DNA of 32,000 nt from Candidatus Saccharimonadota bacterium (GTDB taxonomy: Bacteria > Patescibacteriota > Gracilibacteria > BD1-5 > UBA2023), in the NCBI GenBank assembly GCA_046350815.1, contig JAXLZO010000001.1, forward strand, positions 960,001-992,000, read 5' to 3'. The notes under the pieces are model-generated. The model was given only the letters and a program-made list of their open reading frames with translations. It made no database searches and was not told the DNA's origin. The translations under genes and the position numbers were made by a program. How positions within the stretch are numbered: position 1 is the first letter of the stretch; every line of letters begins with the position of its first letter. Shown in pieces: positions 9,089 through 32,000 of this stretch.

Positions 9089-11032
9089 ATGTTTTCATTC
9101 AGTTGATCAATTGCAAGCAAAAAAGCCTTTACTCTCGTTGAGCTGATTGTTGTTATCACTATTCTTGCTATCCTTGCAGCAGTAGGATTCGTAATAATGA
9201 GTCACCATACATCGGTCGCACGAGATGGAAAGAGAATTTCGGAGATACAGAGTTTATCGAGTGCATCTCGTATTACAACAGCACAACTTCGGGAGCTTCC
9301 TCGTCCTATTACAGATAGTCTCGAATTAACAGTGAGTGGATCATTTATTGGGTACCAAGGATTTATGAGTACTACTTTGGTGAATCCTATTGGGTATGGA
9401 TCAGATAAAATCTATGATCCTCTTGATGGAATTCCCTATACCTATCGGGTCAACAAAAATTATGATCAAGCACAGTTCATGGCATACCTTGAGAACCCAA
9501 GATTTGAGAGGAGTATTGAAATTGCCCTGCAATCTCTTCCATCTCTAGTATCTGAAGTTTCTGCTCTTGATACAAGTAGTATTGATTTTTCCAAGAAATA
9601 CCCATACGCTATTGGTGATAGGCTTTGAATATTCATAGATAAAAATACTCGTACCCCTCTTCAGTCAGGAATAACAGGTACGGAAAGTAGAGATATCTCT
9701 TTAAGTGATAGTGGAAGTATTAATATAATCGTTGGAACAAATGGAGATGATAGTTATATATCTACCAATATATCAAATTCTGTTCTTACTTCACTCGTAG
9801 ATGGAAGCTTTGAGAATGATGCATTGATGGCTATGAATACAAATACCGGAAGTAATTCTGGCAGTAGCTCATCAATAAGTCATATACTTACTATGGGAGA
9901 GTATAGTATTATGGGGAATACCTACTATGGATACATAGGACCTCTGACTATAAGTGCATATGCAACTTTATGAGTGAATATTGTCACTGTTACTCCTGGA
10001 TCACTCATAGATGATACTGTTGATGGGTATGTGATTGATACGATTATTTTGGATAGTAATTATAGTTCACCCATTACTATTCTTGCTGGTAGTACGAATA
10101 TGCCATCGAGTGTAACATTTGAGACTCCGTATGCAAATATCTCATGCACTCCGCAGTCAAGCTTTTCAGATATCACTCCGTATAGTTGTAATGGATCAAC
10201 CACTTCAACTGATTTTTATGTGGGATCGCAGCATGATTTAGAGATAACACTTCCTACACCCCCTCCACCAGAGATTACTTGTACAAATCCTGGAAATGTT
10301 ACAGATGCAAGTTATTTCACCTTTAATTCCTCTACACAAACTATTACAGGGTATGATTGAGCGAATGGCCCAAAAAGTATAGTAATTCCGTGTAATATCT
10401 GATGATTAAATGTCAAACATATTGGTAATAGTGCATTCCGAGAATACGCCCTCACATCAATAGAAATTCCAAGTACAGCTATAACTATAGGACATTACGC
10501 ATTTTACGGCAATCAAATTACTTCTGTTACTATTCCTAATTGAGTAACTACCATTAATCCAAATTCATTTCAAACGAATGCAATTGCCTCAGTTACTATT
10601 CCAGAGAGTGTCACTTATATTGGAAGTGCTGCATTTGCACAAAATCAACTCACTTCTGTAACTATCCCAGATAGCGTAACTGATCTTGCAGATTTTGCTT
10701 TCAACAATAATCAAATCACCTCTGTTACAATCCCAGCAGGTATAACGCAACTAAGTGGGTGGGTCTTTTCACAAAATCAAATAGCTTCCATAACTATACC
10801 AAATAACATAATCCATATTTCTAACGGAGCATTTGCTTACAATCAACTCACATCTATTACTCTCCCAAATAGCATCGAATCCATTGGACCATTAGCATTT
10901 ATTTGACAAACATCATCCTTATGAAATGGTACTGTTTATGGACCGGCATCTGGGCCCGTAAAAATTGCATATGGAGTAAATAATTATTATTTTGACAATG
11001 ATAAACTTCCAAACTACGTTGATCTTCCTTAA
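9089..11032 (+). CDS. type IV pilin-like protein with C-terminal BspA-type leucine-rich repeat domain
   Basis: N-terminus [34 protein letters not shown] is a class III prepilin signal with Glu at +5. Pieces 9197..9628 and 9974..10360 and the sequence out to 11032 are one frame joined by TGA codons. The C-terminus has about 8 repeats of 22 aa (IPxSVTxIGxxAFxxNQLTSVT). Stop TAA 11030-11032. Confidence 0.8.
10466..10927 (+). repeat. 66-bp periodic coding repeats (LRR units)
   Basis: Successive ATTCCA/CTCCCA (IP/LP) repeat starts are spaced exactly 66 nt apart from 10466 to 10862. Confidence 0.7.
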
Positions 11033-15164: not shown

Positions 15165-15181
15165 ATATTTTCGTGAGAAAG

Positions 15182-17830
15182 TTATTTTGTTTTTTTCAGC
15201 AATTCTTCGAGTTTTTGTAGCTGCTCAAGTGCTTCACGTTTTTTATTTTGCTCTGATCGTACAAGATTTTCTGGAGCATTTTTTACAAAACTTTCGTTAA
15301 GAAGCTTAGTATCAATACGACGAAGATAATCCTTTTTATCTTCGATTTCTTTTTGAATACGCTCAACTTCACCAGCGACCGTTATAGCAGTATGACCTTC
15401 AACATTGACGAATATATCAATCTCCTTAACAACGCCGTAGATCCAATACTGATCAGCCTCCATATCACTACGATATTCCAGTGATGCACTTTTTGAAAGA
15501 CCCAAAACGATAGCCTTATTGCGATCGAGAATATCTCTGTATTTTTTTGGTGCACAAATAATCAAAGGGAGAGTGGACGATGGTTTAATTTGTTTATCTG
15601 ATCGTATAGAGCGGATCGCCTTGATCACACTATGAACAACTACTAGATCACTCTCATCAATTTTAAGACGTTCTATGATCACCTCAGGGAATTCCGAAAG
15701 CATGAGATATCACTCACTCGAGATATGAGACCAGAGCTCTTCGGTCACCATCGGAACATATGGATGCAGAAGTTTGAGAAGTGTCTTGATCGCATAGGAG
15801 AGTACTCTCTCACCACTATGATTTCCATCTTTCGTGAGTTTGTATTCTTCGAGATAGATATCAGCAAATTCATCTCGAACAAATGTTATGAGACTTCCGA
15901 TCGTATCAGATACCATCATATCTTCGAATGATTTTCGACTCTCACCGATGAGCGTATTGAGCTTTGAGAGGAGTGCTCGCTCATTCGTTGCTAATTCATC
16001 CTTATGTTCTTGGACATATACCACATCATCAGAGTACGATGTGGCACTCATACCGATCTGCCCATGAACAAATCGCACAATATTCCAGAGTTTATTGAGA
16101 AAAAGCGAATGATTCTCTACGAGCTTGATCGAGAAGTTCATATTATTCCCTGGTGTATTCCCCGAGAGGAGTGCTAAACGTAGAGCATCAGCAGAATACT
16201 CTTGGATTATTGTAATTGGATCAATACCATTTCACTTTGATTTACTCATCTTTTGCCCGTGTTCATCGAGTACGAGTCCATGAAAATAAATTTGTTTGAA
16301 CGGAGTCTGTCCAGTGAGTTCATAACCCATCAGCAACATTCGAATCACCCAAAAGAAGATAATATCATATCCTGTCTCGAGGACTTGAGCTGGATAGAAC
16401 TTCTTAAAAAGCTCACCTTCATTCTCGAGCGTCCAATCCAGCACTCACATAGGCCAAAGACCCGATGAGAACCATGTATCGAGAACATCTTCATCACGAA
16501 CAATTTTTCGATCTGGGTATTTGTCCTGAATCGTCTTGACATCTTGCGTGACACCGAGGAGCTCCCCAGTCTCACTGTCATAGTAGGCAGGAATCTGATG
16601 TCACCACCAGAGTTGACGAGAAATACACCAATCATGGAGATTATAGATCCAATCTTCAAATGTTTTATTAAATCGTTTTGGCACGATCTCAAACTCCTTC
16701 TTCTTATACCCGTGGATAACTTTCTTTGCCATCACACTCGCTTTCACAAACCACTGTGTCGTGACAACTGTCTCAATACGAGCGCCAGTCCTCTCAGAAT
16801 ACGCAACACGTTGTTTGTGAGGTTCAATCTTGATCAGATTTCCTTTTGCCTTCAGGAGTTCTACAATATTCTCACGAGCTGTGAGAACATCCTGACCTGC
16901 AAATATTCCAGAACCCTTGGTCATCACACCTTTCTTATCGATCACGGACATATCCAGTCTGAGTCCATGACGTTTACCACATTCAAAATCAGCGGGATCA
17001 TGCGCAGGAGTAATCTTGACAACACCTGTCCCAAATTCACGATCGACCATCTCATCACCAATAATCGGGATCTCTTTGTTAAGAATTGGGAGAATCACCT
17101 TCTTGCCGATGAGTTTCTTGAATCGTCTATCCTTTGGATGTACCGCGACTGCTTGGTCAGCAAGGAGTGTCTCTGGGCGAGTCGTCGCGACGATAAATTC
17201 ATTGTCCGAGCCAGCAACAAAATACGCAATATAGTACATATTTCCCATCTCTTCTCGGTATTCTACTTCTTCATCTGATACAACGGATTCAAGAGTTGGG
17301 TCATAATTCACCATATATTCACCACGATAGATGAGTCCTCGGTTGTAGAGTTCCACGAAAACTGATTCGACTAATTCATTCATCTGAGGCTCAAGAGTAA
17401 ATTTCTCATGATCCCACGAGAGAGATGCTCCCATCTGACGAATTTGCTTCTGTATCGTTCCAGCAGATTGTTCCTTCCACTTGTATGCCTCTTCGAGAAA
17501 TGCAGCCCGCCCCATCTGTTGGCGGTTCTTTCCTTCTTTGGCAAGCTTCTTCTCGACTACTACTTGTGTTGAGATACCAGCGTGATCAGTACCAGGGATC
17601 CAAAGCGTCTCATCGCCAATCATTCGATGGTATCGTGCAAATACATCCTCAATCGCACACATAAAAGAATGTCCAAGGTGTAGAACTCAGGTTACATTCG
17701 GTGGTGGAAGAGGTATAGAGTAGGTTTTCCCGGTTTTCCCAGGCTTCGGAGTAAAACATCCGTTCGCTTCCCAATCAGCATAAATACGAGATTCAAAATC
17801 TTTTGGAGAGTACTGTTTCGGAAAATCCAT
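15182..17830 (-). CDS. valS: valine--tRNA ligase
   Basis: Five ORF-track pieces share one frame. Motifs: PPPNVT-G(TGA 17687-17689)-VLHLGH (HIGH), SRQLWW-G(TGA 16601-16603)-HQIP, KMSKSK-G(TGA 16232-16234)-NGIDP, and a C-terminal coiled coil. 882 codons; stop TAA 15182-15184. Confidence 0.93.
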
Positions 17831-17970: not shown

Positions 17971-18339
17971 ATGATTTTACATAAAGCCAATGAGATCATA
18001 ACATTAACAATGGTTATACTATCCTACATCGCTGGAAATTATTACTTATCTGATGACTTTTCAAAGGAATATAACTTTATTATATGGGCTATATTTGCTA
18101 TAACCTATCCTTTTGTTCTTGTTAAGATGATATATACATCATGAGGTGAAAGATTTATTTATCTACAGATTTTTCTTGCTATGTGATGGCCAACCCTAAT
18201 GCTAATTTGAGGTCGTAACGATAATTATCTACTACTAGCGTATCTCATGTTTATTCCACTTATTGAAATATTTGCACTGATTATACTTTCATTAAACTAC
18301 TTCTTCTCCAGCAAAAGAAGAGCTACTGGTTCAAAATAG
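17971..18339 (+). CDS. small hypothetical membrane protein (122 aa)
   Basis: ATG 17971 to TAG 18337-18339 with 3 in-frame TGA. Hydrophobic throughout. Preceded by repeat copy 1. Confidence 0.45.
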
Positions 18340-18360
18340 AAACATTCTTGCCTTTTCTTA

Positions 18361-18450
18361 ACAAGAAAGAAAAATATGATGAAGCGATTGTGTGAAAAAA
18401 GAGAAATTTGAGAAGAGGAAAGCAAGTTGAATGATAAATATTTGATAATT
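18361..18450 (+). repeat. 90-bp direct repeat, copy 2
   Basis: See copy 1; it lies in the same position relative to the downstream gene. Confidence 0.85.
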
Positions 18451-18496
18451 TCTAAAAAATAGAGTAGACTAGTAAAGAATTACTCATTTTCTTTTT

Positions 18497-19042
18497 ATGA
18501 CACTTGCAATCATTAGTCAATTTTATGATAAGTTTCTATCGCTTAAAAATGAACCGAGAATAAATCAAACAACTTTTTTTCTCAGAATTCTGACTGTATT
18601 TTTTCCATTATATATTGCCTCATTTTTGTTCTGGGGTTTTATGCTTTATGATCTTTCTCCTGTTATATACTTCTGATTAACTGTAGTAACAACTCAACCA
18701 TTAGCCTTCATTCAAATAATAAAAAGATCACACGATTCAATACTCAATTTTATTTTAATATATTTTTGTTTTTTGCATCAAGTAAGCATCTCTTTTATAG
18801 GAATATGGATGATTTATACTACCTCTGGTGATTCATTTGCTGATGCACTGTTTCTCTGAATAATATATCCAATTAGTCAGCTAATGATCTATAGTATAGT
18901 TACTATCATACCAAGTGAAAAGAAAAGTAACAAATATGGACCTTATAAAAAATCAAACAAATGGGTAATATTATGAATAGTTACTTCTTTCATATCTATA
19001 GGTATAGGTATGTGAATTTATTTATATTTAACAAATTTATAG
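18497..19042 (+). CDS. hypothetical membrane protein (181 aa)
   Basis: ATG 18497 to TAG 19040-19042 with 4 in-frame TGA. Multiple TM segments. Preceded by repeat copy 2. Confidence 0.45.
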
Positions 19043-21344: not shown

Positions 21345-21647
21345 TTATCTTGCCAAACTCTCGAGAGTAAGAGTAACTATCTCTGCGAGTTTTTCTCGAT
21401 CTTCAAGCCAATCTACATTCACAGGAGCAGTATTTTTACTTCATGGATATGCTTTTGTAACCTGATCTTCAAAGAGATGGATCGTGTCTGAAGTTGTCTT
21501 GAGGAAGAGTGTATTGTCACAGACGAGTCAAAATATCTTTCATTGACTGTACACACAATATTCCCCCATCATACGTCGGAAAGTGATGTCAGGCACCATC
21601 GATAGACAATCTTCGAGAACACGGAGGGTATCGGGAGAGGTAGACAT
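21345..21647 (-). CDS. TfoX N-terminal domain-like protein
   Basis: 100 aa: ...FRRMMGEYCVYSQGKIFGLVCDNTLFLKTT... matches the TfoX_N pattern (MFGxxxxYxxGKxFxxxxDxxLYLK). 3 in-frame TGA; stop TAA. Confidence 0.6.
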
Positions 21648-21663
21648 TGTATATCGTATAAAT

Positions 21664-23430
21664 TTAGACAAGAATAATTTCATCTGCTTCCTCCTCATCC
21701 TGGAGATAACCATCTTTCTGCATATCTACCATTTCTCTATAAACTTCGGATATTTTATAAAGCTCTTCATGTGATCAATAGGCAATCACCTTGCCATGAT
21801 CCATGAGGATGATCTGATCAGCATGCATAATCGTTGAGAGGCGATGGGCAATAACAATACTAGTTCGTCATTTCATCAGATGATCAAATGCATCTTGTAC
21901 TTGCCTCTCTGTCTTAGTATCGAGAGCGCTCGTTGCTTCATCGAGGATGAGTATCTGAGGATTCGCGAGAATCGTTCGAGCGATAGCTAGACGCTGCCTC
22001 TCGCCACCAGAGAGCTTGAGTCCACGCTCCCCTACTACCGTATCAAGTCAATCTGGAAGTCCCGAGAGAAATTCATCAAGATGTGCCTCTTTGCATGCGC
22101 GTATAATATCTTTTTCCGTAATATCATCACGAACATAGGAGAGATTATGTCGAATGCTATCATTAAAAAGGGTAGTGTCCTGAAAGACAACTCCAAAGAG
22201 CGATCGATAGTTCTCAAGAGAATAATCCGTGATCTCATGATCGTCGAGCTTGATCGATCCATCTGAGTAATCATAGAGCCTCAGGAGAAGCTGGGTAATG
22301 GTTGATTTGCCACTTCCTGTATGCCCAATAATAGCCGTATGAGATCAACGAGGAAAGGAAATCGATACATTATCAAGGACCTTTCGATGATTTGATGGAT
22401 AGGAGAACGAGAGATTGGTGATTTCGACTCACTTTTTCACTTTTTGAATCAGTCGTACCCCCATATCTCGCTCGCTATCAAGAGCAAATACCTCGAGCAT
22501 TTTCTCATAATGAGCACTGTCTTGGTGAAGTTGACCAAGCTTATCCAATATCATCATCAATGGTCCAAATATCTTATCTGCAAGTGAGATGAAAAAGAAG
22601 AATGTTGCAAGATCGATATGATCATTTTGCAGAAAAAGAACACCGACGATGATTGCAATTGCTCGAATAAAAAGTGTGAAAAATTTACCAAATGAGTTAA
22701 ATACTACCCAGAATTTTCGAATTTTTTTCTGAGCTTCTCATGCTCATGAGGCTCGGGATCGTAGTTCTTGATCTTCTCTGCACATACGAGCGAATACTCG
22801 TATTATCAGAAGGTTCGTGAAACCATCTGATAGTCGATCAAAGAGTCGATCCCAGAGTTTATTTGCTATTTTTTGTTTTGAATGAGCATTGGATCCAGCA
22901 TAATAAACTCACCAAGCCATCAATGGCATGAACAGAAGTAATATTCCCATAAAAGCAGGTGCAATGATAAAACCACTCACAAGAAGAATAAGAATCATTA
23001 AAACTTGCGGGAGAATGTCCAAAACCACCGTGTCAAGAACTCACCAAATAAAATCATTTGCTCGAGTAATCGAATTTTGTTTTTCACCATTCTGTATATT
23101 TCGATGATATTCAATAGGAAGTGATTGAAATTTTCTCATTCATTTAAGAAGAAACTGAAAAAAATCCTCATTTGCGCTATCGAGCAGGATGACACCATAT
23201 AGATAGCGAATTCCTATGGTTGCTATAGAGGTCACAATCCAGAGAATAATAATCCCAGAAAGCACCAAAATAGACCAAGAATCCTGAAATGCCTGAATGA
23301 TGTATTTGTAGAAGAATGGCTCACTTGAGAGAAGGAGAACGAAGATGATCAAGAGGAACATAAGCTTCTTCCAAATCTTTTTTGTATTGGGATATTCACC
23401 CAGGAGAGCACAGAGAGTCGAGAGTTGCAT
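21664..23430 (-). CDS. ABC exporter, fused permease/ATP-binding protein
   Basis: N-terminal TMD, Walker [10 protein letters not shown], signature [16 protein letters not shown], Walker [13 protein letters not shown], and LMK-G(TGA 21868-21870)[13 protein letters not shown]. 588 codons; stop TAA. Confidence 0.88.
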
Positions 23431-24290: not shown

Positions 24291-25059
24291 GGCTCTAGAC
24301 AAGAAGAATCATCTTCTTACACTAGTTCCATATGATCAAATACAGTAAAATCAGCTCTGAGAAAATACGAGAAATTTTGAAGCTATTTTTAGGAGACTTT
24401 ACTGCCACTCAAACATCAGAACTTCTCGAAATATCTCGTAACACTATTAACAGGTACTATGCTATATTTCGAGAAGAAATTGTGAGAATATCTATTGAAG
24501 AGTCATCAAAGTTTTGAAAAGAATTCTGAGAATTTGAAATTGATGAGAGTTATTTCGGTGTAAGACGAGTCAGAGGAAAACAATGAAGATGAGCGGCTGG
24601 AAAAACACCACAGTGTTTGGACTTCAGAAAAGAAACTGAAATGTCTCTGTAAGTATTGTTCCAGATTGTAGTAGAGACTCATTAATACCTATAATATACG
24701 AGGAAAAGTTCTGGAATGATCCACGGTCAACTCTGATGGTTGGACAAGTTATGATGGGCTTATACTCAATGGATACGAACATTATAAAGTATTTCATTCA
24801 CACAATGCACCACACAGGCATACACTTCGTTAAGTTTGCGAGATGAAAAAGTCATGTAAACGGTATAGAGGCATTTTGGAGTTTTGCAAAACGAAGAATG
24901 ATCAAATTAAACTGAATCCGAGCAGATAAATTTCATCTTCATTTGAAAGAATGCGAGTTTCGGTATAATTATCGCAATAAGAAAGAAGAAGCCTTACGGC
25001 TCCTTCTTACGAAGATTAGCGAAACGCTAAATTATTCAAATGTTTGCTTGTCTAGAGTC
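24291..25059 (+). mobile_element. IS1595-family insertion sequence (decayed)
   Basis: Terminal inverted repeats GGCTCTAGACAAG (24291-24303) and CTTGTCTAGAGTC (25047-25059) match at 12/13 positions. They enclose an ISXO2-like transposase reading frame. Confidence 0.65.
24332..25035 (+). pseudogene. IS1595/ISXO2-like DDE transposase, at least 3 frameshifts
   Basis: N-terminal HTH, then EIDESYFGVRRVRGKQ-G-R-G-AAGKTP. The frame slips near 24611 (VFGLQKRNGNVSVSIVPD), near 24693 (IRGKVLEGSTVNSDGWTSYDGLILNGYEHYKVFHS) and near 24810-24830 (HVNGIEAFWSFAKRR...LHLKECEFRYN). Confidence 0.7.
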
Positions 25060-25086
25060 TCGAAAATTATCTTTTGTCATATTTCT

Positions 25087-26088
25087 GTGACTCATGCATC
25101 CCACTATGATGATCGTCGATCTCACCAGCGTAAGCGAGGAGAGTCGAGATTGTCCTCTCAAAAACATAGTATCACTTTTCTCTCAAGGGACTCACAGCAA
25201 GCATTTTGGATAGTCGCCCGGGTCATCCAGCGTCCAGATCGTGAGGTACTTGTTTTGCTTTCTCAAGGCTCAACTAACACACTCAAAATCGAATCAATTA
25301 TACGTTGACATGTGATCTGAGATCATATCTGTGTTCGTGATGGAACATATATAGGGGTATATGAGCAATCGCATACACTCTGTAGGATGAAAGGAGATAG
25401 CGACCGATATTCACTCGGTGTGAGGCGAGAGCAAACGATCGCTACCAATATCGATACGATCGTTATTGTTGCTTCTGTCTCGCAGCCACACTTTCAGCCA
25501 TGATTTCTCGATAGATATTTGCTCCTCTCTGAGTACTGTCAGATCCCAGCAGTCATTGTCCTGACCAAATCTGATCTTGCGCTGATACCACATGATCTCC
25601 TTGCTCCCTATCGGGATATACTCAAACTCCCAATCTTCATCACGAGCAGTGATGATCCAGATTCACTCTCGTCACTTCGTTCGTATTTGTCTGATAAGGT
25701 TTCGGTATTTGTCGGAAAAAGTGGAGTCGGAAAATCCACTCTGACCAATTGTCTCCTTGGTCGTGAGGTTGCTACTGAGGGTGAGGTATCTCGGATCGAT
25801 CAGCAATGACGACATACAACGACTGGCTCAAGTCTGTATTCACTACCAGATGGTGGATATATCATAGATACTCCCGGTATCCGCTCGCTCGATTTTCTTG
25901 AGCTAAAGCATTCAGAGATACGATTGTATATGTCTGATATTGCCAAGATTGGACTATCATGTCACTATCGTAGCTGTCTCCATCAAGGTGAAGATGGATG
26001 CGCTATACAAGATGCTATAAAAACTTGATTACTCTCAAAAGCTCGATATGAGAGCTATATTCGCCTCTTGAACGAAGCAAAAAAATAA
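25087..26088 (+). CDS. rsgA: ribosome small-subunit biogenesis GTPase RsgA
   Basis: OB-fold region, NIDTIVIVAS, LTKSDL, P-loop GKSGVGKSTL, QQ-G(TGA 25807-25809)-RHTTT, DTPGIR and zinc knuckle CHYRSCLHQGEDGCA. Stop TAA 26086-26088. The start is uncertain: GTG 25087 is the first start-like codon after the IS right end. Confidence 0.8.
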
Positions 26089-26138: not shown

Positions 26139-26755
26139 ATATTAAATCTTCTTATTGTATTAATGTGGCATAAGCCTCTTTTTATGATTGATTTTAAGTA
26201 CTTTTCTGAGTTTTTTTGAGCGAATAAATTATAGTTAAAATTAAAAAATAAATCAAAATAACAGGAAAGAACAAAAATCCATATATAAATAACGGTGGAA
26301 CCATCCCTTCTCATAGGTATACATTATTTCCTGAAACAATGTATAGAAATATATATAAAATGGTTCACAATAAAAACGGAAGGAGTCCTAGATATGTATT
26401 ACTCATTTCAATTTTTCCATAAATGTCTCGTCTTCGTAAGATAATGTATTTATTATATCTTCTTCAAAAGATATATAAGAATAAAAATAGACTTATTATA
26501 TACGATATGACTTGCTGTGAATTAAAAAATATATGTAAAAAGTTTTTTATAATAATTCATATTATATATGTTATTGTAACACTTATAATCAAAGTTTCAA
26601 TTGATCTCCAGAAAAATTCTTTTCAGTTAACTTTTTCATCTGATGGGATATCTCCAAAAATCCATTTTGAAAATTTACTATTCATATAAGTGAAGTTAAT
26701 TGTAAGTACGGATTACTAGTATTCTTTCTTAGAAATGGTTTCCCTGACTCTTGTG

Positions 26756-27106: not shown

Positions 27107-27856
27107 CTAGATGTGTATCATTTTCTGGAGTGCTTCAAATTGTTTTATCTGGCCATCAAGACGAATGCATAACTCTTGCTGTAAGTGCACATGATGCAAT
27201 CATCTTGCCTGATCCTTGGCTCTTTCGAGTACTGACACTTGCTCTTGTATAGTAGTGGTAAGGGTGTGCTTTAATGCTGATAGGTAGTCAATAATATGCT
27301 TGTTACTTTCTCAAAATAGTAACCACATTTGTTCGTATTGCTTTTGATTGAGTTTGCTTCGTAAAATTTTTGCTACATAAGTAAGTCGTTTTTGGAGTGT
27401 GTAAATTTTCTGCATTTCTTTACTTACTGTTTTGATTTTTTCAAAGCTTTGCGCACTATCCAGGCTGACCCTATTGCCCTCTGTTTGGTGAAATTGTATA
27501 ATAGCATCCAGACTCCGTACGACGTACCGGTTATATATATTTATTAAAGGGTTGCTAACACATATATAGATTACTACCCAACTAACTGGTATTAAACTGA
27601 ACATCCCTCATATAAAAACCAAAGATTGCACTAGTGGATGCAGCTCGGGGTGATTGTCTACATATGTGGCACATGCTCAAAAAATCAGACCAACTAGAAG
27701 CATTATTATGACAGTCAAGATTTTGCTTTTTGCTTTATTATTTTCCATATTAATCCTGTGTAGATTGGATTGAAGAAGTCTGTATCCTTCTAAGATATTT
27801 TCTGGAGTATCACTTTCTCATGTATGTGTGACTTCTGATGGGATTACTTGTGTCAT
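27107..27856 (-). CDS. 2TM + coiled-coil protein, paralogue A
   Basis: ATG 27856. ORF-track piece 27311..27604 is extended on both sides through TGA. Two TM helices (ILTVIIMLLVGLIFGACATY, FIGGMFSLIPVSWVVIYICV), then a long helical region. C-terminal tail is LQQELCIRLDGQIKQFEALQKMIHI; stop TAG 27107-27109. Confidence 0.55.
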
Positions 27857-27890
27857 ATAAAATTTTGATATTACTTATCTTTTGCACTCA

Positions 27891-28544
27891 TTAGTATGCT
27901 TGTATTTTTTCTTGCAGCTGCTCAAATTGTATTATCTGCTCGTGGAGCCTGAGCTGCTGCATATGAAGCACGCCGACAGCGTCCTCTCTCTCACCTAGCT
28001 CTGCGATATTTTGGGAGAGGGCAGAAGCGAGTATATCTTTTTGTCAGTCTATATTTTTTGAGAGTTGTGATTTGAGCTCATGACCGAATTCGATCAAAAA
28101 ATTGAGTTCTATTATGAGCTTTTTGATTGTTTTTTGATAGCTTTCTTCGGTGAGAGTAAAAAACAAGACATTTTTTACTCTACTAAAATACCATATATTT
28201 TTCTGTATTTGGTAGAGGCAATCAAGGATTTCATCGGTATTCCGAGTATCTTTTGACTGCTCAAATAGAGAGAGGCTTGTATCCATGCTCTTAAATAAAA
28301 GAGTCATTCATTGGGTTGTTACCACGACAACAATAGTAAAAATAATTGCCATTCATCCTGTAAAGATCATATAATTTTCTATATCTTTTGAGGTATCAAT
28401 CCCAAACAATAGCAAAATGAAGCACATGATAGCAAAAAATGGAAGCAATAAAGCTAGGGTTGGCACTATACCCATGATACCTGACCACTGCATATCTTCC
28501 ATGAAGCTTATTATTTTTCGCTGTTGAGTTATATCTTCCTCCAT
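27891..28544 (-). CDS. 2TM + coiled-coil protein, paralogue B
   Basis: Pieces 28353..28544 and 28044..28307 and a tail are joined by TGA. Two TM helices, then a helical region. Tail is LHMQQLRLHEQIIQFEQLQEKIQAY; stop TAA 27891-27893. Confidence 0.55.
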
Positions 28545-28547
28545 AGA

Positions 28548-28646
28548 CTATATAGTTATCTGCTCTATCCAGCGAGTGTAGATACTCATATCGACCATTT
28601 TGAGAGATGAGGAAGTTTCTTGTATAGTTTTTCTGAGGTTATCCAT
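28548..28646 (-). pseudogene. orphan duplicate of the last 32 codons of the AAA+ ATPase gene
   Basis: MDNLRKTIQETSSSLKMVDMSIYTRWIEQITI* compared with the ATPase C-terminus ...MDNLRKTIQETSSSLKMVDMSIYTRWIEQIKL*. It begins exactly at an ATG, and its TAG stop is 3 nt before the paralogue B start. Confidence 0.7.
28564..28646 (-). repeat. 83-bp perfect direct repeat, copy 1
   Basis: Identical base-for-base to 29372..29454. Flanking sequence is diverged. Confidence 0.95.
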
Positions 28647-28657
28647 TTATCTGGGGG

Positions 28658-29350
28658 TTATTTTGTAGGTGTATTGTTTTGTAGTTTTTTCTGCAGGAGT
28701 CAAAACTGCTCTATCTGTCGATCAAGGCGAGCTTGGATATCAGCGGTCAGTGAGGGTCTCTGGAGTCAGTTGACTTGCTCTCTAGCACTCTCGAGATCAT
28801 CGATCTGTATCGTGAGTTGAGAGTGGAGCTCTGACCTGAGACGAGAGATCTCTTGTATCATATAGAGTGAGCTCTCACCTAGGAGTGTGCGTAGCCGCCC
28901 AGAGACAGATTGGAGCAATCTTGACTGGGATTGCTGGTAGAGCGTTTCATGAAGCTGATAAACAAGATATATCTTGTTAGTAATTTCCATAATAACACTG
29001 TTGTTTTTATATTGCCATTCTTGATTGTTTTGTATAGCATGAAATGTTGCCATTGCGTTACATATTTGTTGTATTGGCCTGAGAGTAACATATATACAGC
29101 TTCTCCGTATAATAGCCTCAAATCAAAGCCCAGTGTAGAGTAGCATTATAGCTATTAGTATGAAGCCATTCTTGGGTACTATTTGGCTAAAAAAGTTAGC
29201 TGCATGCAAATAGTACATTGCAGGTAGTCATATACAGAGGTAGAAATATAATAAAATCCTTTTTGTACGATGCTCCGTTGCTGATCCGTATATCCGTATT
29301 GAATTACTGAGCTCTGTATATGTTTTTATTATTTCTTCATGAGTGCGCAT
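28658..29350 (-). CDS. 2TM + coiled-coil protein, paralogue C
   Basis: ATG 29350 lies 5 nt after the ATPase stop. Two TM helices (ILLYFYLCIGLPAMYYL, FILIAIMLLYTGLGFEAII). Piece 28766..29053 continues through TGA to the tail IQARLDRQIEQFGLLQKKLQNNTPTK; stop TAA 28658-28660. Confidence 0.55.
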
Positions 29351-29355
29351 AATTT

Positions 29356-30621
29356 TTATAATTTTATTTGTTCTATCCAGCGAGTGTAGATACTCATATC
29401 GACCATTTTGAGAGATGAGGAAGTTTCTTGTATAGTTTTTCTGAGGTTATCCATCGTGATCTCGTGTCCGAGGAGATTGTCTTCTGTGAGAGTCCCGGCT
29501 TGTGCCTCATCTATGAGCTCGAGGAGGTTATAGCTCGCATCCCTCGCGACCTCATCACAGATTGCTTCGATATCTGCGGATACGTACCCATCACTGAGCT
29601 GAGCTAGCTCATCATAGTCGAGAGTCTCATGTGGACGACCAGCTCGCTCGATATACATCAAAAACAGTGCCTTTCGAGCATTGGTATCTGGTGGTCCGAG
29701 GTAGATTTTTTTGTCGAGACGCCCAGATCTCAGGATCGCCGAGTCGAGATGGTCAGGACGATTGGTAGCGGCTATGACAATCAGATTTTGCACCTCTGAG
29801 AGAGCGTTGAACTCTTGGAGAAATTGAGAGAGTTCCTCAGCTTTATGGGCGTCAGATCATGTAGTACGTGATGATACGAGCGAGTCTATCTCATCGAGAA
29901 AAAGTACGATCGGCTCATCCTTTGCTGCAAGCTTTGCACCGTCAAAAAATTCCTTGATATTCTTCGTCGTTTGATGTTGATACGACGAACCAAATTCCCC
30001 CATATTTTTGGAAATAAACCCTGCTCAGAGTTCTTCCGTAAGCTTCTTGGTTATATAAGTCTTTCCTGTTCCTGGAGGACCATAGAAGAGAAGTCCTGTC
30101 GGGATCGATACCTTGAATTTCTCATAGAGCGAGAAGAGATCTTGGTAGAGCTTCGTATTTTTTTCATCCATTTTCAATGAGTCCTCCTTTTCTTCATCTG
30201 ACTTCTCCGAGCCTTGCTTCTCGATCGCACGCATACGAAAAGCAAATTGAAGTGGACGCACAAAACTCTCGGTGAGCTCCTTTTTGAGGTCATCCATGCC
30301 AGCAATTCATGCAAATCACCATGTCTGTGGATTGTCTTTCTTAAAGTGTTTCACCTCAATAGGCAAAGACGGCGTATCATCCTTTTTTTGTGATGATGAT
30401 TGTGTCGTAGTGTCGATAGGATTTTTAGGGATTTGAAGCTCTGAAAAAGTATCATGGAGATGTTTGTTCGTTTCTTTGAGAGCCTTTTCAGCGGTTGTCA
30501 TAGCTTCTTCGAGCGATTCAAGAGATGATTGTTTCAAATCTCCATTCGCTATTTTTGCAAATTCTGGAGAGCTCGTCACTGCATTGAAGAATGCATCAAA
30601 TCATGGTTGTGGAGTGGACAT
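29356..30621 (-). CDS. AAA+ ATPase (classic clade, single AAA module) with low-complexity N-terminal region
   Basis: Pieces 30316..30579, 30025..30297 and 29356..29793 share one frame joined by TGA. Motifs: QTW-G-FA-G-IAGMDDLKKEL, Walker A GPPGTGKT, Walker B VLFLDEID, and second region of homology IAATNRPDHLDSAILRSGRLD. ATG 30621; stop TAA 29356-29358. Confidence 0.85.
29372..29454 (-). repeat. 83-bp perfect direct repeat, copy 2 (3' end of the ATPase gene)
   Basis: See copy 1; the two copies are spaced 808 bp apart. Confidence 0.95.
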
Positions 30622-30630
30622 AGTTGGTAT

Positions 30631-30951
30631 TTAGATGCTATTCTCTACTTTTTGTGCTGATTGCAAGTGGAGATTAAAGTTTTTTTCGAGAAGATCTATG
30701 ACTTCAGCGTTTTCACTACTCTTTTGCGAGAGAGATTGATGAATCTGATGGATTTCTTGCTGATAATTTTGAAGGTCTTTTGTATGAGATTGAATCCAAT
30801 CTGTAAGAATAGATTGGAAATGCGATAAATTCGATTTCATGTCACGATCTTCATTTTGAAGCATATCCTGAAGAGGATAATTTTGATTATTCTGAAGACA
30901 AAAGAAGAAGGATTTTTTATGGAGAAGATTGATGATGTGAGAAAAACTCAT
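30631..30951 (-). CDS. small Q/H-rich coiled-coil protein
   Basis: First ATG at 30951 (the ORF track starts at TTG 30972). Ends TAA 30631-30633, 9 nt before the ATPase ATG. Sequence has a heptad-like character (LQNYQQEIHQIHQSLSQ). Confidence 0.4.
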   Translation of the reverse strand: MSFSHIINLLHKKSFFFCLQNNQNYPLQDMLQNEDRDMKSNLSHFQSILTDWIQSHTKDLQNYQQEIHQIHQSLSQKSSENAEVIDLLEKNFNLHLQSAQKVENSI

Positions 30952-31084
30952 ATATGCATCTTTCCATAGCAATGTTATGCTTTGTATCTGATAAGCTATT
31001 TCTGCGATATTACGTAATTAAAATCTTGTGTGATATTGTACAGGATTTTCTCAAAAAAAGCAAAATACACATACATTTGCACAC

Positions 31085-31104
31085 AAAAAAGAGCCCGAGG
31101 GCTC
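31085..31104 (-). terminator. GC-rich intrinsic terminator
   Basis: The minus strand reads GAGCCCTCGGGCTC followed by TTTTTTGTGTG, 13 nt after TGA 31118-31120. Confidence 0.75.
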
Positions 31105-31117
31105 AGTTAGGATATAA

Positions 31118-31615
31118 TCATTTGAATCGCATGTAAGTACCATGCCACTCAAGATGATCACGAATCTTTTGCATCTTTTGCAACGAAACGGATTCACCGT
31201 TAATTGCAAAAAATACAGGAAGTAACGGGTTATATTTTATGACAGCCGTGTACTGTTCAAGCATGTCATCCAAAGCTTGAACAGCAGCATGACAGAAGTT
31301 ATCAGAGCGGTGCAAGATCTGATGCCAGCGCGCCCACGACGTATCATGCAGACGTTCATCAATCACAATCACCGTATCAGCCATAATCAGCTTGATGCGA
31401 AAATAGCTGTGACTCATAAGAGACGTGTAGAGTTTAAACTCAGCATATTCCGCAAAGCGTAATGTAGTTGCATTTGGCAGATGTTCTGTCGTAAAACGTT
31501 CACGACCGCCATCAAGAAACCGACGATAGAATGCATTTTTCACCCTTTCCTGCAAGGAAATCTTTGCAGGTTTTTTGCCAATGTGTGGCAAATATTGGTT
31601 AATACTCGAAGTCAT
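31118..31615 (-). CDS. hypothetical protein with standard-code gene signals (foreign-looking)
   Basis: 165-codon ORF with no in-frame TGA and glycines encoded only by GGC/GGT. AGGAGG lies 8 nt before the ATG. It ends in TGA directly followed by a terminator and uses more NNG/NNC codons than its neighbours. No family recognised. Confidence 0.7.
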   Translation of the reverse strand: MTSSINQYLPHIGKKPAKISLQERVKNAFYRRFLDGGRERFTTEHLPNATTLRFAEYAEFKLYTSLMSHSYFRIKLIMADTVIVIDERLHDTSWARWHQILHRSDNFCHAAVQALDDMLEQYTAVIKYNPLLPVFFAINGESVSLQKMQKIRDHLEWHGTYMRFK

Positions 31616-31623
31616 AAAGACTT

Positions 31624-31629
31624 CCTCCT
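31624..31629 (-). promoter_or_regulatory. Shine-Dalgarno AGGAGG
   Basis: The minus strand reads CAGGAGGAAGTCTTT-ATG. No comparable SD was seen in front of about 15 other start codons inspected in this window. Confidence 0.6.
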
Positions 31630-31659
31630 GAAATAGATATTTGTTTTTGTGGAACCGTT

Positions 31660-31686
31660 ATTCTATGGAAAAATGAATTTTGTCAA
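31660..31686 (-). promoter_or_regulatory. sigma70-like promoter TTGACA-N15-TAGAAT
   Basis: On the minus strand, TTGACA lies at 31686-31681 and TAGAAT at 31665-31660, upstream of the 31615 start. Confidence 0.4.
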
Positions 31687-31697
31687 ACAAAGCATAC

Positions 31698-32000
31698 TTA
31701 GAATATTTGCTTCTCTAGATCTTTACTTATTTTTCAGATATTCACCCCGCATCTCATAAAACAGATACCTAGAAAAGAAAGTATCAATGCAAATATAAGT
31801 TTAATAAATAAATCATTTCTATTTTCTTGCATTTTTTCTTTTAGGATATCTCAAGGGGAGAACGCATACTCACTTATGTAATCAAATTTAAAATCATGCA
31901 AATCTGTATAGGGAACAATTGTATTATTAATTTGCTTTCACAAAAGATACACCATTTTTCATCAACTGGTAATATAAAATTTTGCTCTTACATCTCATTC
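31698..32000 (-). CDS. possible hypothetical protein, 5' end outside window
   Basis: The frame is open from the window edge to TAA 31698-31700 if 5 TGA codons are read as sense. One hydrophobic segment (LFIKLIFALILSFLGICF). Support is weak. Confidence 0.2.

What the first reader, a model, noticed from the sequence alone, without database searches (positions are those of the whole stretch)
27107..30951. Uncharacterised operon: coiled-coil protein + AAA+ ATPase + three tandem 2TM/coiled-coil paralogues
Five co-directional genes are tightly spaced, with gaps of 5-110 nt. They are a Q/H-rich helical protein (30631-30951), a single-module classic AAA+ ATPase (29356-30621) and three proteins of 217-249 aa (29350-28658, 28544-27891, 27856-27107). 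The ATPase has a disordered N-terminal region and an acidic insert just before Walker A. The three smaller proteins share one architecture: a short N-terminus, a TM hairpin and a long coiled coil. I recognise no described system with this composition. The cluster sits in an accessory context, with IS relics on one side and a foreign-looking gene on the other. Plausible roles are speculative: ATPase-driven remodelling or disassembly of membrane-anchored coiled-coil polymers (Vps4/ESCRT-III- or PspA-like logic), a membrane-targeting defence or abortive-infection module, or a surface apparatus for an episymbiotic lifestyle.
Basis: partly seen in the sequence, partly recalled or inferred. Interest (0 to 1): 0.85.

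Follow-up and report, generated by a model that had tools for sequence, protein, structure and literature searches.

The report
Gracilibacteria AAA ATPase with variable membrane-partner cassettes
The five genes are real (read with UGA as glycine) and form the end of an undescribed gene cluster found across Gracilibacteria: a highly conserved AAA+ ATPase followed by a strain-variable array of membrane-anchored helical proteins that share one near-invariant C-terminal module; its function is still unknown.

Summary
Observation confirmed. Under code 25 (TGA=Gly), five co-directional minus-strand genes sit at the stated coordinates. They are a small helical protein (G1), a single-module classic AAA ATPase, and three paralogous N-in/C-in 2TM helical proteins (CC2TM).

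The "accessory island" reading is only half right. The ATPase is conserved across Gracilibacteria (52-62% identity in more than 120 clusters). It sits in the order F375 (soluble, 72-83% identical) - F400 (4TM) - AAA - CC2TM x0-5, and that order runs past the window end.

CC2TM is a small lineage-restricted family: 303 representatives among 1.84 billion proteins. Residues 1-170 are hypervariable; the last ~55 are near-invariant. All seven loci found by searching with CC2TM have the AAA immediately upstream.

Related strains carry different arrays between the AAA and rsgA: g3 alone, g4-g3', or g3-relic-g4-g5. The 98-nt relic of the AAA 3' end marks a recombination junction.

No Pfam, NCBIfam, PADLOC, PHROG, PDB or Foldseek match exists for any partner. 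ESCRT-III/PspA, IetAS and Vps4 membership tests fail.

Best model (inferred, not shown): a hexameric AAA remodeller acting on membrane proteins through their shared C-terminal hairpin. The system is undescribed and moderately to highly interesting.

The parts
30631..30951 (-). g1 (G1): small soluble helical protein of 106 aa at most, with an uncertain start. It looks like a TM-less version of the C-terminal module shared by the membrane partners.
   Evidence: There are no TGA codons. It is 98% identical in L003 and 69% over 84 aa in L004, and in both it lies directly upstream of the AAA. hhalign against the G1b family, which sits upstream of F375 in other Gracilibacteria, gives 87% probability, E 4e-6. 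No Pfam, NCBIfam or PADLOC family matches.
29356..30621 (-). Single-module classic-clade AAA+ ATPase, 421 aa. It is the conserved motor of the locus.
   Evidence: PF00004 E 5.7e-35. More than 120 database clusters are 52-95% identical over the full length, all from Gracilibacteria. The AlphaFold2 model of the 95%-identical P0001 has pLDDT 79. Foldseek matches p97/Cdc48, PAN and Vps4 AAA modules about equally well.
30559..30603 (-). Conserved N-terminal motif of the AAA, GFDAFFNAVTSSPEF (aa 7-21). It is a candidate partner- or membrane-docking element.
   Evidence: F8, D9, F11, F12 and E20 are invariant in 72 orthologues. Per-position conservation is shown.
30112..30240 (-). Acidic insert of variable length (aa 128-170) before beta-1 and Walker A. 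It is predicted as the second half of a helical hairpin.
   Evidence: AlphaFold2 predicts helices 110-139 and 149-168 with a low-confidence loop between them. The segment varies in length among orthologues.
30058..30081 (-). Walker A motif, GPPGTGKT (aa 181-188).
   Evidence: Invariant in the family.
29962..29991 (-). Non-canonical pore loop 1, GSSYQHQTTK (aa 211-220). The family consensus is SSY[L/Q]HQTTK, with His where the canonical Ar-Phi-Gly motif has Gly.
   Evidence: S212, S213, Y214, H216, Q217, T218, T219 and K220 are invariant in 72 orthologues. The segment aligns to the pore-loop segment of VAT and Cdc48.
29884..29907 (-). Walker B motif, VLFLDEID (aa 239-246).
   Evidence: F241, L242, D243, E244 and D246 are invariant.
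29713..29772 (-). Sensor-1 Asn (ATN, N287) and the second region of homology with arginine fingers (LRSGRLD; R298, R301).
   Evidence: These residues are invariant. They indicate an oligomeric, catalytically competent AAA ring.
28658..29350 (-). g3: CC2TM paralogue 1, 230 aa. TM segments lie at about aa 32-54 and 63-81. The conserved C-terminal hairpin spans aa 171-223 (nt 28682-28840).
   Evidence: Family HMM 1e-31. It is 98% identical to P0121. The AlphaFold2 model of P0121 has pLDDT 83.6 and pTM 0.68, with five helices. In strain L037 this is the only array gene.
28549..28646 (-). Non-coding relic of the last ~32 codons of the AAA gene. It marks a recombination junction.
   Evidence: It is a 98-nt direct repeat, 95% identical to 29357-29454. 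In strain L036 the homologous sequence is the true AAA 3' end, directly preceding the g4 orthologue.
27891..28544 (-). g4: CC2TM paralogue 2, 217 aa. TM segments lie at about aa 23-48 and 59-77. The C-terminal module spans aa 157-214 (nt 27903-28076).
   Evidence: Family HMM 2e-32. The orthologue in L036 is 93% identical and lies immediately after the AAA. No other relative exceeds 29% identity.
27107..27856 (-). g5: CC2TM paralogue 3, 249 aa. TM segments lie at about aa 46-66 and 75-100. The C-terminal module spans aa 195-247 (nt 27116-27274).
   Evidence: Family HMM 1e-33. The best database relatives are 25-29% identical. It is absent from related strains L036 and L037.
31010..31615 (-). c29: 201-aa ORF of unknown function upstream of g1. 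It is a sub-lineage-specific insertion between F400 and G1/AAA.
   Evidence: It is 100% identical in L003, where the order is F375-F400-TMEM43-like-c29-G1-AAA. No family matches. Whether it belongs to the system is uncertain.
31698..32000 (-). 3' part of a TMEM43-like (PF07787) membrane protein, cut by the window end. The conserved F400 and F375 genes lie further upstream, outside the window.
   Evidence: PF07787 E 2.6e-7. The full 298-aa gene and the upstream F400 and F375 genes are seen in L003, which is 97.6% identical in nucleotides to window 29190-32000.

Best explanation
The window holds the distal part of a Gracilibacteria-specific, membrane-associated AAA+ machine.

**Composition (shown).** The conserved soluble core is a very strongly conserved helical protein (F375, just outside the window) and a classic hexamer-type AAA ATPase. 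Around them lie paralogous membrane proteins: F400/F404 with four TM segments, and CC2TM (g3, g4, g5) with a TM hairpin. There is also a TM-less relative, G1 (g1).

**CC2TM layout.** The CC2TM proteins are N-in/C-in. They have a hypervariable TM-plus-middle region and a near-invariant cytoplasmic C-terminal helix-Gly-helix module. In most members this module ends at a fixed distance from the C-terminus.

**Array variability (shown).** The AAA gene is constant. The CC2TM genes behind it form a cassette array that differs between closely related strains. The array is reshuffled by recombination in the conserved AAA 3' end and in the conserved C-terminal module.

**Mechanism (inferred).** The ATPase ring, directly or through F375, recognises the shared C-terminal hairpin. 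It uses ATP hydrolysis to disassemble, extract or remodel assemblies of these membrane-anchored helical bundles. The variable parts of the bundles would provide different specificities.
For: **Shown**
- The genes are intact under code 25.
- The AAA has invariant Walker A and B motifs, sensor-1 and arginine fingers, so it is an active oligomeric ATPase.
- AAA orthologues are 52-62% identical across more than 120 clusters. F375 is 72-100% identical across its best 120 clusters.
- The order F375-F400-AAA-CC2TM(x0-5) is seen in about 30 loci.
- CC2TM lies directly downstream of the AAA in 18 of 31 AAA-seeded loci. The AAA lies directly upstream in 7 of 7 CC2TM-seeded loci.
- CC2TM is a tight family restricted to this lineage: 303 representatives with E<=1e-3 among 1.84e9 proteins.
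- Within CC2TM, the top-residue frequency is 0.05-0.46 for residues 1-170 and 0.71-0.96 for residues 171-220. In 181 of 196 members the protein ends exactly 10 residues after QIxQF.
- The conserved turn Gly is TGA-encoded in g3 and g5.
- AlphaFold2 predicts a confident five-helix membrane-anchored bundle.
- Strain variability: L037 has AAA-g3-rsgA, L036 has AAA-g4-g3'-rsgA, and the window has AAA-g3-relic-g4-g5-c23-rsgA.
- AAA 3' relics occur in the window and in L007. L002 carries a duplicated CC2TM C-terminal fragment.
- g3' of L036 is mosaic: 49% aa identity overall, but its C-terminal 316 nt are 85% identical.

**Suggestive**
- hhalign links the C-terminal modules: F400~F404 98% probability, G1~G1b 87%, CC2TM~F400 69%, CC2TM~G1b 63%. 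All share an ELQxxRL(D/E)xQ helix near the C-terminus.
- In L041 a CC2TM gene occupies the G1b position.

**Inferred only**
- The AAA (or F375) binds the C-terminal module and remodels these proteins.
Against: - No physical or co-folding evidence for any interaction could be obtained.
- Thirteen of 31 AAA-seeded loci have no CC2TM next to the AAA, including the GN02-873 genome and the 80%-identical relative L004. CC2TM therefore cannot be the obligatory substrate. F400 fits that role better.
- Pore loop 1 lacks the canonical Gly (SSY[L/Q]HQ), so classical threading is not assured.
- The hhalign links between CC2TM and F400 or G1b are weak (63-69% probability) and involve helical, biased sequence.
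- The AAA N-domain model has low confidence (pLDDT 50-70).
- The promoter and terminator scan is no better than shuffled sequence, so operon structure rests on spacing alone.
Confidence: 0.45

Rival explanations
1. Anchor or adaptor model. The CC2TM, F400 and G1 proteins are not substrates. They are interchangeable membrane anchors or adaptors that recruit the soluble AAA (and F375) to the membrane and present other clients to it, as adaptors do for Cdc48/p97, Clp or FtsH-type machines. The variable region selects the client.
For: - The AAA has no TM segment.
- One conserved docking module combined with a hypervariable remainder is the typical adaptor layout.
- Several paralogues occur per genome, and copy number varies from 0 to 5.
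- The AAA module is closest to Cdc48/p97-type segregases, which rely on exchangeable adaptors.
Against: - No client is identifiable.
- The variable part is mostly TM helices and a cytoplasmic helical bundle with no recognisable binding domain.
- The available data cannot separate this model from the substrate model.
Confidence: 0.2
2. Conflict module (anti-phage, abortive infection, or toxin/immunity-like). The 2TM proteins are membrane-disrupting effectors or immunity-like factors that diversify under an arms race. The AAA controls their activation or removal.
For: - The cassette arrays vary between strains and carry displaced 3'-end relics, as in orphan-module arrays of polymorphic systems.
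- g4 has 15 non-synonymous against 11 synonymous codon changes between strains.
- g4 and g5 lack close orthologues.
- 2TM effectors are common in defence systems (background knowledge).
- The AAA hits the PADLOC IetA model at E 1.9e-35.
Against: - The IetA similarity is generic. The NCBIfam IteA score is 120 bits against a cutoff of 510 and ranks below CDC48, PAN and FtsH, and no IetS protease is present.
- No PADLOC hit exists for g1, g3, g4 or g5.
- The AAA, F375 and F400 are lineage-wide, highly conserved, and syntenic with housekeeping genes.
- No relatives were found on viral contigs.
- SLATT-like Foldseek hits are noise (E 4-5, probability <=0.13).
Confidence: 0.15
3. Envelope or secretion apparatus for the episymbiotic or predatory lifestyle. 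The membrane proteins form a trans-membrane assembly, and the AAA powers its assembly or export.
For: - The locus is restricted to the lineage and universal within it.
- It contains many membrane proteins.
- In several genomes it lies next to a PilT/T2SSE ATPase.
Against: - CC2TM external loops are only about 6-11 residues long, and the bulk of the protein is cytoplasmic (sequence).
- There are no signal peptides, secretins, or known secretion components.
- The pilT adjacency is lost in the window's lineage.
Confidence: 0.08
4. True ESCRT-III/PspA-Vps4-type system. The helical partners are divergent ESCRT-III-superfamily polymers, and the AAA is a Vps4 orthologue.
For: - The domain order resembles Vps4: a short N-terminal helical region, a linker, one AAA module and a C-terminal helix.
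- The partners have a conserved extreme C-terminal helix, reminiscent of MIM motifs.
- CdvC is among the NCBIfam hits.
Against: - The CdvC score is 129.8 bits against a cutoff of 650 and lies below CDC48, PAN and FtsH.
- No MIT, Snf7 or PspA Pfam hit occurs in any protein of the locus.
- Foldseek of the confident CC2TM model finds no ESCRT-III or PspA structure (best E 0.99).
- The partners are integral membrane proteins.
- Pore loop 1 is not of the KW/YxG type.
Confidence: 0.04

Closest known systems
Cdc48/p97/VAT-type and PAN-type classic AAA unfoldases or segregases (best sequence and structure matches of the ATPase)
   Same: - It has a classic-clade AAA module with Walker A and B, sensor-1 and two arginine fingers.
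- The best NCBIfam, PDB and Foldseek matches are Cdc48/VAT D2 and D1 and PAN.
- The likely logic is a soluble ring ATPase working with exchangeable partner proteins.
   Different: - It has a single AAA module with no double-psi-barrel or OB N-domain.
- Its N-terminal motif is unique.
- A helical-hairpin insert precedes beta-1.
- Pore loop 1 is non-canonical (SSY[L/Q]HQ).
- Scores fall far below every curated family cutoff (159 vs 803 bits for CDC48).
Vps4/CdvC with ESCRT-III (and PspA/Vipp1) membrane-remodelling systems
   Same: - The ATPase has a single AAA module with a short N-terminal helical region, a flexible linker and a conserved C-terminal helix.
- The helical partners carry a conserved extreme C-terminal helix.
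- The gene for the ATPase lies next to the genes for its presumed helical partners.
   Different: - No MIT domain was detected.
- The partners have no Snf7 or PspA homology and no fold match.
- The partners are integral 2TM or 4TM proteins.
- They are arranged as strain-variable cassette arrays.
IetAS (IetA AAA ATPase + IetS protease) anti-phage system
   Same: The AAA module hits IetA/IteA models (PADLOC E 1.9e-35; NCBIfam 120 bits).
   Different: - The score is far below the curated cutoff of 510.
- There is no IetS-like protease.
- The gene neighbourhood differs.
- The ATPase is a conserved lineage-wide gene rather than an island gene.
Orphan-cassette arrays downstream of a conserved gene (for example CdiA-CT/CdiI and Rhs-CT orphan modules, and pilS pilin cassettes). 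This comparison comes from background knowledge and was not tested here.
   Same: - Variable genes accumulate behind a conserved gene.
- A short copy of the conserved gene's 3' end is retained in front of a displaced cassette.
- Array content differs between closely related strains.
   Different: - The repeated element is the conserved 3' end of an ATPase gene.
- The cassettes are whole genes for 2TM helical proteins.
- No toxin or immunity domain is detectable.

Membership tests
Classic AAA clade (PF00004) | Walker A GxxGxGKT, Walker B hhhhDE, sensor-1 Asn, and a second region of homology with two Arg fingers | tested here: met
   PF00004 E 5.7e-35 over 177-309. GPPGTGKT, LFLDEID, N287, R298 and R301 are invariant in 72 orthologues.
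Classic AAA clade (PF00004) | Canonical pore loop 1, aromatic-hydrophobic-Gly | tested here: not met
   The aligned segment is SSY(Q/L)HQTTK. Tyr is kept, but His replaces Gly, and this is invariant in the family.
Vps4/CdvC | N-terminal MIT three-helix bundle | tested here: not met
   No MIT Pfam hit at E<=1. AlphaFold2 gives short helices 6-16, 19-25 and 32-61 at pLDDT 50-70. Foldseek matches cover only the AAA module.
Vps4/CdvC | Score above the curated family cutoff (NF041006 CdvC) | tested here: not met
   129.8 bits against a cutoff of 650, ranked below CDC48, PAN and FtsH.
Vps4/CdvC | ESCRT-III/Snf7-family partner encoded nearby | tested here: not met
   No Snf7 or PspA hit in g1, g3, g4, g5, F375, F400, F404 or G1b. 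The CC2TM model has no ESCRT-III or PspA fold match.
IetAS defence system | IetA equivalog score, plus an adjacent IetS serine protease | tested here: not met
   NF042959 scores 120 bits against a cutoff of 510. No protease is present in the window or in about 35 related loci.
FtsH | N-terminal TM anchor and C-terminal M41 protease domain | tested here: not met
   No hydrophobic segment. No Peptidase_M41 hit. TIGR01241 scores 139.6 against a cutoff of 600.
PspA/IM30/Vipp1 | PF04012 homology or the ESCRT-III-like helical hairpin fold in a partner protein | tested here: not met
   No Pfam hit. No Foldseek or PDB-profile match.
SLATT 2TM effector domains (conflict systems) | Match to SLATT Pfam families, or a significant fold match | tested here: not met
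   No Pfam hit at E<=1. BFVD SLATT proteins appear only at E 4-4.7, probability 0.07-0.13.
TelA (toxic anion resistance, PF05816). This was a lead from memory for F375. | Pfam or NCBIfam match | tested here: not met
   No hit at E<=0.1 (Pfam) or E<=1 (NCBIfam). The PDB profile search was empty. A profile-profile (HHpred) test was not available.
CC2TM family (defined here) | About 220 aa, an N-in/C-in TM hairpin, a C-terminal LRSDL...AKSEV...G...ELQxxRLDxQIxQFExLQ module, and a gene directly downstream of the Gracilibacteria AAA | tested here: met
   g3, g4 and g5 hit the family HMM at 1e-31 to 1e-33 and lie behind the AAA.

The most novel reading that the evidence does not exclude
The locus is a previously unrecognised kind of AAA-driven membrane system that defines the Gracilibacteria. 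It has an almost invariant soluble core (F375 + AAA). It services a family of membrane-anchored helical bundles through a common C-terminal 'handle'. One sub-family of these bundles (CC2TM) is maintained as a recombining cassette array that differs from strain to strain. This would be a programmable or diversifying membrane-partner repertoire, used in host-cell interaction or in phage and competitor conflict.
Probability: 0.25. Interest if true: 0.85.

Novelty: new variant of a known kind. Interest (0 to 1): 0.62.

Why it matters
**Why the locus stands out.** Gracilibacteria are uncultivated, recoded, reduced-genome bacteria whose cell biology is essentially unknown. This locus contains one of their most conserved lineage-specific proteins (F375, 72-83% identity across the group). 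It also contains a dedicated AAA ATPase with an unusual pore loop, and several families of membrane proteins with no detectable relatives elsewhere.

**What it would offer if the model holds.**
- A clade-defining membrane machine.
- A natural example of a conserved motor coupled to a rapidly recombining repertoire of membrane partners.
- A handle on symbiont-host or phage-host interaction in the Candidate Phyla Radiation.

**Practical value.** The result shows that standard annotation leaves the whole cluster as 'hypothetical'. The CC2TM array could also serve as a strain-typing marker.

Tried and rejected
- **Table-11 ORF calling.** It fragments every gene, so code 25 was used instead.
- **Family libraries.** Pfam, NCBIfam, PADLOC and PHROGs scans of g1, g3, g4, g5, c29, F375, F400, F404 and G1b gave only sub-threshold coiled-coil noise.
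- **PDB searches.** Profile searches with the CC2TM and F375 alignments gave nothing meaningful.
- **Foldseek on the CC2TM model.** The best PDB match has E 0.99, and the hits are generic helical bundles such as Smac, BAR domains and chemoreceptors. The best BFVD match has E 0.34. SLATT hits are noise.
- **Foldseek on the AAA model.** It cannot tell p97, PAN and Vps4 apart.
- **TelA idea for F375.** This came from memory and was not supported.
- **Viral-contig scans.** No relatives of CC2TM or F375 were found.
- **Metagenome scans.** The first scan failed confirmation because the first query row was atypical and the conserved Gly is a TGA. A repeat with a typical member gave only 5 loci.
- **Structure prediction of window proteins.** The 95-98% identical database proteins were used instead; they were translated with TGA=Trp, so a few Gly positions are Trp in the models.
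- **Promoter and terminator scan.** Not above the shuffled expectation.
- **Rfam.** No hits in the window.
- **Literature.** No paper describes this cluster. The 'hypervariable gene' of Sieber et al. 2019 (PMC6851277) is an unrelated PTD-repeat surface protein.

Full report
**1.

The ORF listing with table 11 shows only fragments across 27.1-31.0 kb. When TGA is read as sense, window-wide stop-to-stop ORFs of at least 100 aa rise from 47 (6,697 aa) to 128 (26,188 aa).

In orthologue alignments built from related loci, columns that contain TGA are otherwise filled mainly by Gly. The share is 31% in the AAA family, with Ser next at 9%, and 79% in F375. Trp is not among the top six residues. TGA therefore encodes Gly (code 25).

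| Gene | Coordinates | Length |
|---|---|---|
| g1 | 30631-30951 | 106 aa |
| AAA | 29356-30621 | 421 aa |
| g3 | 28658-29350 | 230 aa |
| g4 | 27891-28544 | 217 aa |
| g5 | 27107-27856 | 249 aa |

The gaps between them are 9, 5, 113 and 34 nt. Differences between strains fall mostly on third codon positions, so the genes are coding. The counts by codon position are 64/44/166 for the AAA, 5/8/16 for g4 and 15/11/23 for g1. No Rfam family is present in the window.

**2. The ATPase**

The protein is a single-module classic AAA (PF00004, E 5.7e-35). It falls far below every curated family cutoff:

| Family | Score (bits) | Cutoff (bits) |
|---|---|---|
| CDC48 | 159 | 803 |
| PAN | 145 | 500 |
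| FtsH | 140 | 600 |
| CdvC | 130 | 650 |
| IteA | 120 | 510 |

- PDB sequence hits and Foldseek hits of the AlphaFold2 model cover only the AAA module. The model was built from the 95%-identical P0001 and has pLDDT 79. The hits do not separate p97/Cdc48, PAN and Vps4.
- Across 72 orthologues, Walker A, Walker B, sensor-1 N287 and R298/R301 are invariant. This fits an active ring ATPase.
- Pore loop 1 is an invariant, non-canonical SSY(L/Q)HQTTK.
- The N-terminus carries a near-invariant GFDAFFxAxxxSPEF motif and predicted helices up to residue 61.
- A disordered linker follows (residues 62-100).

**3. The three paralogues**

- Each of g3, g4 and g5 has two hydrophobic segments.
- Basic residues lie before TM1 and after TM2, and the connecting loop is short (6-11 residues) and acidic or neutral (sequence). 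The topology is therefore N-in/C-in, with a cytoplasmic C-terminal domain.
- The three align with homologues from other loci. All invariant columns fall in the last ~55 residues, with the pattern L(R/K)SxL...Q...L..A...G...RLxxQIxQFxxLQ.
- In a 90-member alignment the top-residue frequency is 0.05-0.46 for residues 1-170 and 0.71-0.96 for residues 171-220.
- In 181 of 196 family members the protein ends exactly 10 residues after QIxQF.
- The conserved turn glycine is TGA-encoded in g3 (G195) and g5 (G219).
- AlphaFold2 of P0121 (98% identical to g3) gives a confident all-helical model (pLDDT 83.6, pTM 0.68) with helices 4-54, 62-108, 119-141, 144-195 and 199-225.
- Nothing similar was found in the PDB (best E 0.99) or BFVD (best E 0.34).
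- A PDB profile search, Pfam, NCBIfam, PADLOC and PHROGs were also empty.
- An exhaustive profile search of 1.84 billion representatives found only 303 proteins at E<=1e-3. This is a small, tight family.

**4. Genomic context: conserved, not accessory**

AAA orthologues at 52-62% identity over the full length fill the top 120 clusters. All named ones are Gracilibacteria. The NCBI phylum is now called Ca. Altimarinota.

I mapped family HMMs onto about 40 fetched loci. The recurring order is (G1b)-F375-F400-AAA-CC2TM x0-5. It often continues into pilT, tatD, holB and tmk.

- **F375** is a soluble helical protein of about 375 aa. It is 72-100% identical across its best 120 clusters and has no family or PDB match.
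- **F400** and its relative F404 have about four TM segments plus a C-terminal helical domain. hhalign links the two at 98% probability.
- F400 lies within 6 kb upstream of the AAA in nearly all loci that have upstream DNA.
- In the window's sub-lineage, locus L003 is 97.6% identical in nucleotides. Its order is F375-F400-TMEM43-like-c29-G1-AAA. The window therefore ends inside the operon-like block.
- CC2TM lies directly downstream of the AAA in 18 of 31 AAA-seeded loci. All 7 loci found by searching with CC2TM have the AAA immediately upstream.
- CC2TM is nevertheless dispensable. Thirteen loci lack it, including GN02-873 and the 80%-identical relative L004.

**5. The array is a strain-variable cassette array**

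The 113-nt g3-g4 spacer contains a 98-nt copy, 95% identical, of the AAA gene's last ~32 codons.

Contigs from related strains show three different arrays between the AAA and the convergent rsgA:

| Strain | Similarity to window | Array |
|---|---|---|
| L037 | 99% nt | AAA-g3-rsgA |
| L036 | 83-94% nt | AAA-g4 (93% aa)-g3' (49% aa; C-terminal 316 nt 85% identical)-rsgA |
| Window | - | AAA-g3-relic-g4-g5-c23-rsgA |

- In L036 the sequence homologous to the relic is the real AAA 3' end abutting g4. The relic therefore marks a recombination that placed g3 in front of an older AAA-g4 junction.
- Apart from the g4 orthologue in L036, g4 and g5 have no relative above 29% identity in 5.8 billion proteins.
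- Similar debris occurs elsewhere: an AAA-like fragment inside the L007 array and a duplicated CC2TM C-terminal fragment in L002.
- The conserved AAA 3' end and the conserved C-terminal module thus act as recombination substrates, while the N-terminal two-thirds of the protein diversify.

**6. A shared C-terminal module**

hhalign aligns the C-terminal ends of several families:

| Pair | Probability | E-value |
|---|---|---|
| CC2TM vs F400 | 69% | 4e-5 |
| CC2TM vs G1b | 63% | - |
| window G1 vs G1b | 87% | 4e-6 |

All of these share an ELQxxRL(D/E)xQ helix close to the C-terminus. In L041 a CC2TM gene sits in the G1b position. I regard this link as probable, not proven. The sequences are helical and compositionally biased.

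**7. Mechanism**

What is shown:
- a conserved, catalytically competent, soluble ring-type AAA;
- cytoplasm-facing C-terminal modules, conserved to the last residue, on a set of membrane proteins encoded around it;
- genetic linkage between them;
- cassette variability.

What is inferred is that the AAA, directly or through F375, docks on this C-terminal handle and remodels, disassembles or extracts these membrane-anchored bundles (confidence about 0.45).

The main rival is that the membrane proteins are adaptors or anchors rather than substrates (0.2). A conflict or defence role (0.15) fits the variability. It is weakened by the lineage-wide conserved core, the housekeeping synteny, the lack of PADLOC support beyond generic AAA similarity, and the absence from viral contigs. 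An envelope or secretion apparatus (0.08) and true ESCRT-III/Vps4 homology (0.04) are less likely. Membership tests for Vps4/CdvC, IetAS, FtsH, PspA, SLATT and TelA all fail.

**8. Novelty and verdict**

No paper in the searchable library describes the cluster. Every source annotates the partner proteins as hypothetical.

The ATPase is a new family within a known clade. The partner families and the cassette-array organisation are undescribed. Because the function is not established, I classify the finding as a new variant of a known kind: an AAA+ remodeller with dedicated partners. It is not categorically new.

Interest is 0.62.

Noticed in passing
window 28549-28646 (copy of 29357-29454): A 98-nt direct repeat, 95% identical, lies in the g3-g4 spacer. 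It is a relic of the AAA gene's 3' end. In strain L036 the homologous sequence is the real AAA end abutting g4.
   Followed up: yes
window 24326-26088 (+): An IS1595-family transposase remnant (PF12762) runs into rsgA (PF03193) in one stop-to-stop ORF under code 25. The true rsgA corresponds to about aa 178-501. The IS relic is about 2 kb from g5 and is not adjacent to the cluster.
   Followed up: partly
window 26194-26685 (-): A 163-aa four-TM ORF (c23) lies in a 27.5% GC stretch between g5 and rsgA. It matches no family and is absent from related strains L036 and L037. It is probably a recent insertion.
   Followed up: partly
window 31085-31120 (-), inside c29 (31010-31615): A TGA codon at 31118 is followed at once by a terminator-like GC hairpin (31091-31104) and a T-run. 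Under code 25 the ORF reads through into a hydrophobic tail, so the true 3' end of c29 is ambiguous.
   Followed up: no
L003 195-1340 (upstream of the window end); family F375: F375 is a soluble helical protein of about 375 aa. It is 72-100% identical across its best 120 clusters of Gracilibacteria, yet it has no Pfam, NCBIfam or PDB match. It is the most conserved component of the locus and a prime target for structure and function work.
   Followed up: partly
window 9089-11032 (+): A 647-aa protein has a type IV pilin-like N-terminus ([19 protein letters not shown]). It resembles the unusually large GspG-like pseudopilins reported for a Gracilibacterium (PMC6851277).
   Followed up: no
window 17971-19042 (+): A second low-GC stretch (28.3% at 18-19 kb) carries two multi-TM ORFs (17971-18339 and 18497-19042) that were not scanned against any family library.
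   Followed up: no
window 21345-21713 (-) and 21664-23430 (-): A TfoX_N-domain protein (competence regulator family) and an ABC exporter (ABC_membrane + ABC_tran) lie upstream in the window. Both are ordinary context genes.
   Followed up: no
L007 13208-15153; L019 11363-13302: In two distant relatives a LemA (PF04011) + DUF3137 pair follows the AAA or the CC2TM array. In L007 one more CC2TM gene lies beyond that pair (15178-15873).
   Followed up: no
L030 3435-5663; L031 12449-14593: In two divergent loci the AAA orthologue is longer (about 575 aa). It is followed by a ~190-220-aa ORF and then a ~715-745-aa ORF with TM segments and weak AAA-family similarity, which looks FtsH-like.
   Followed up: no
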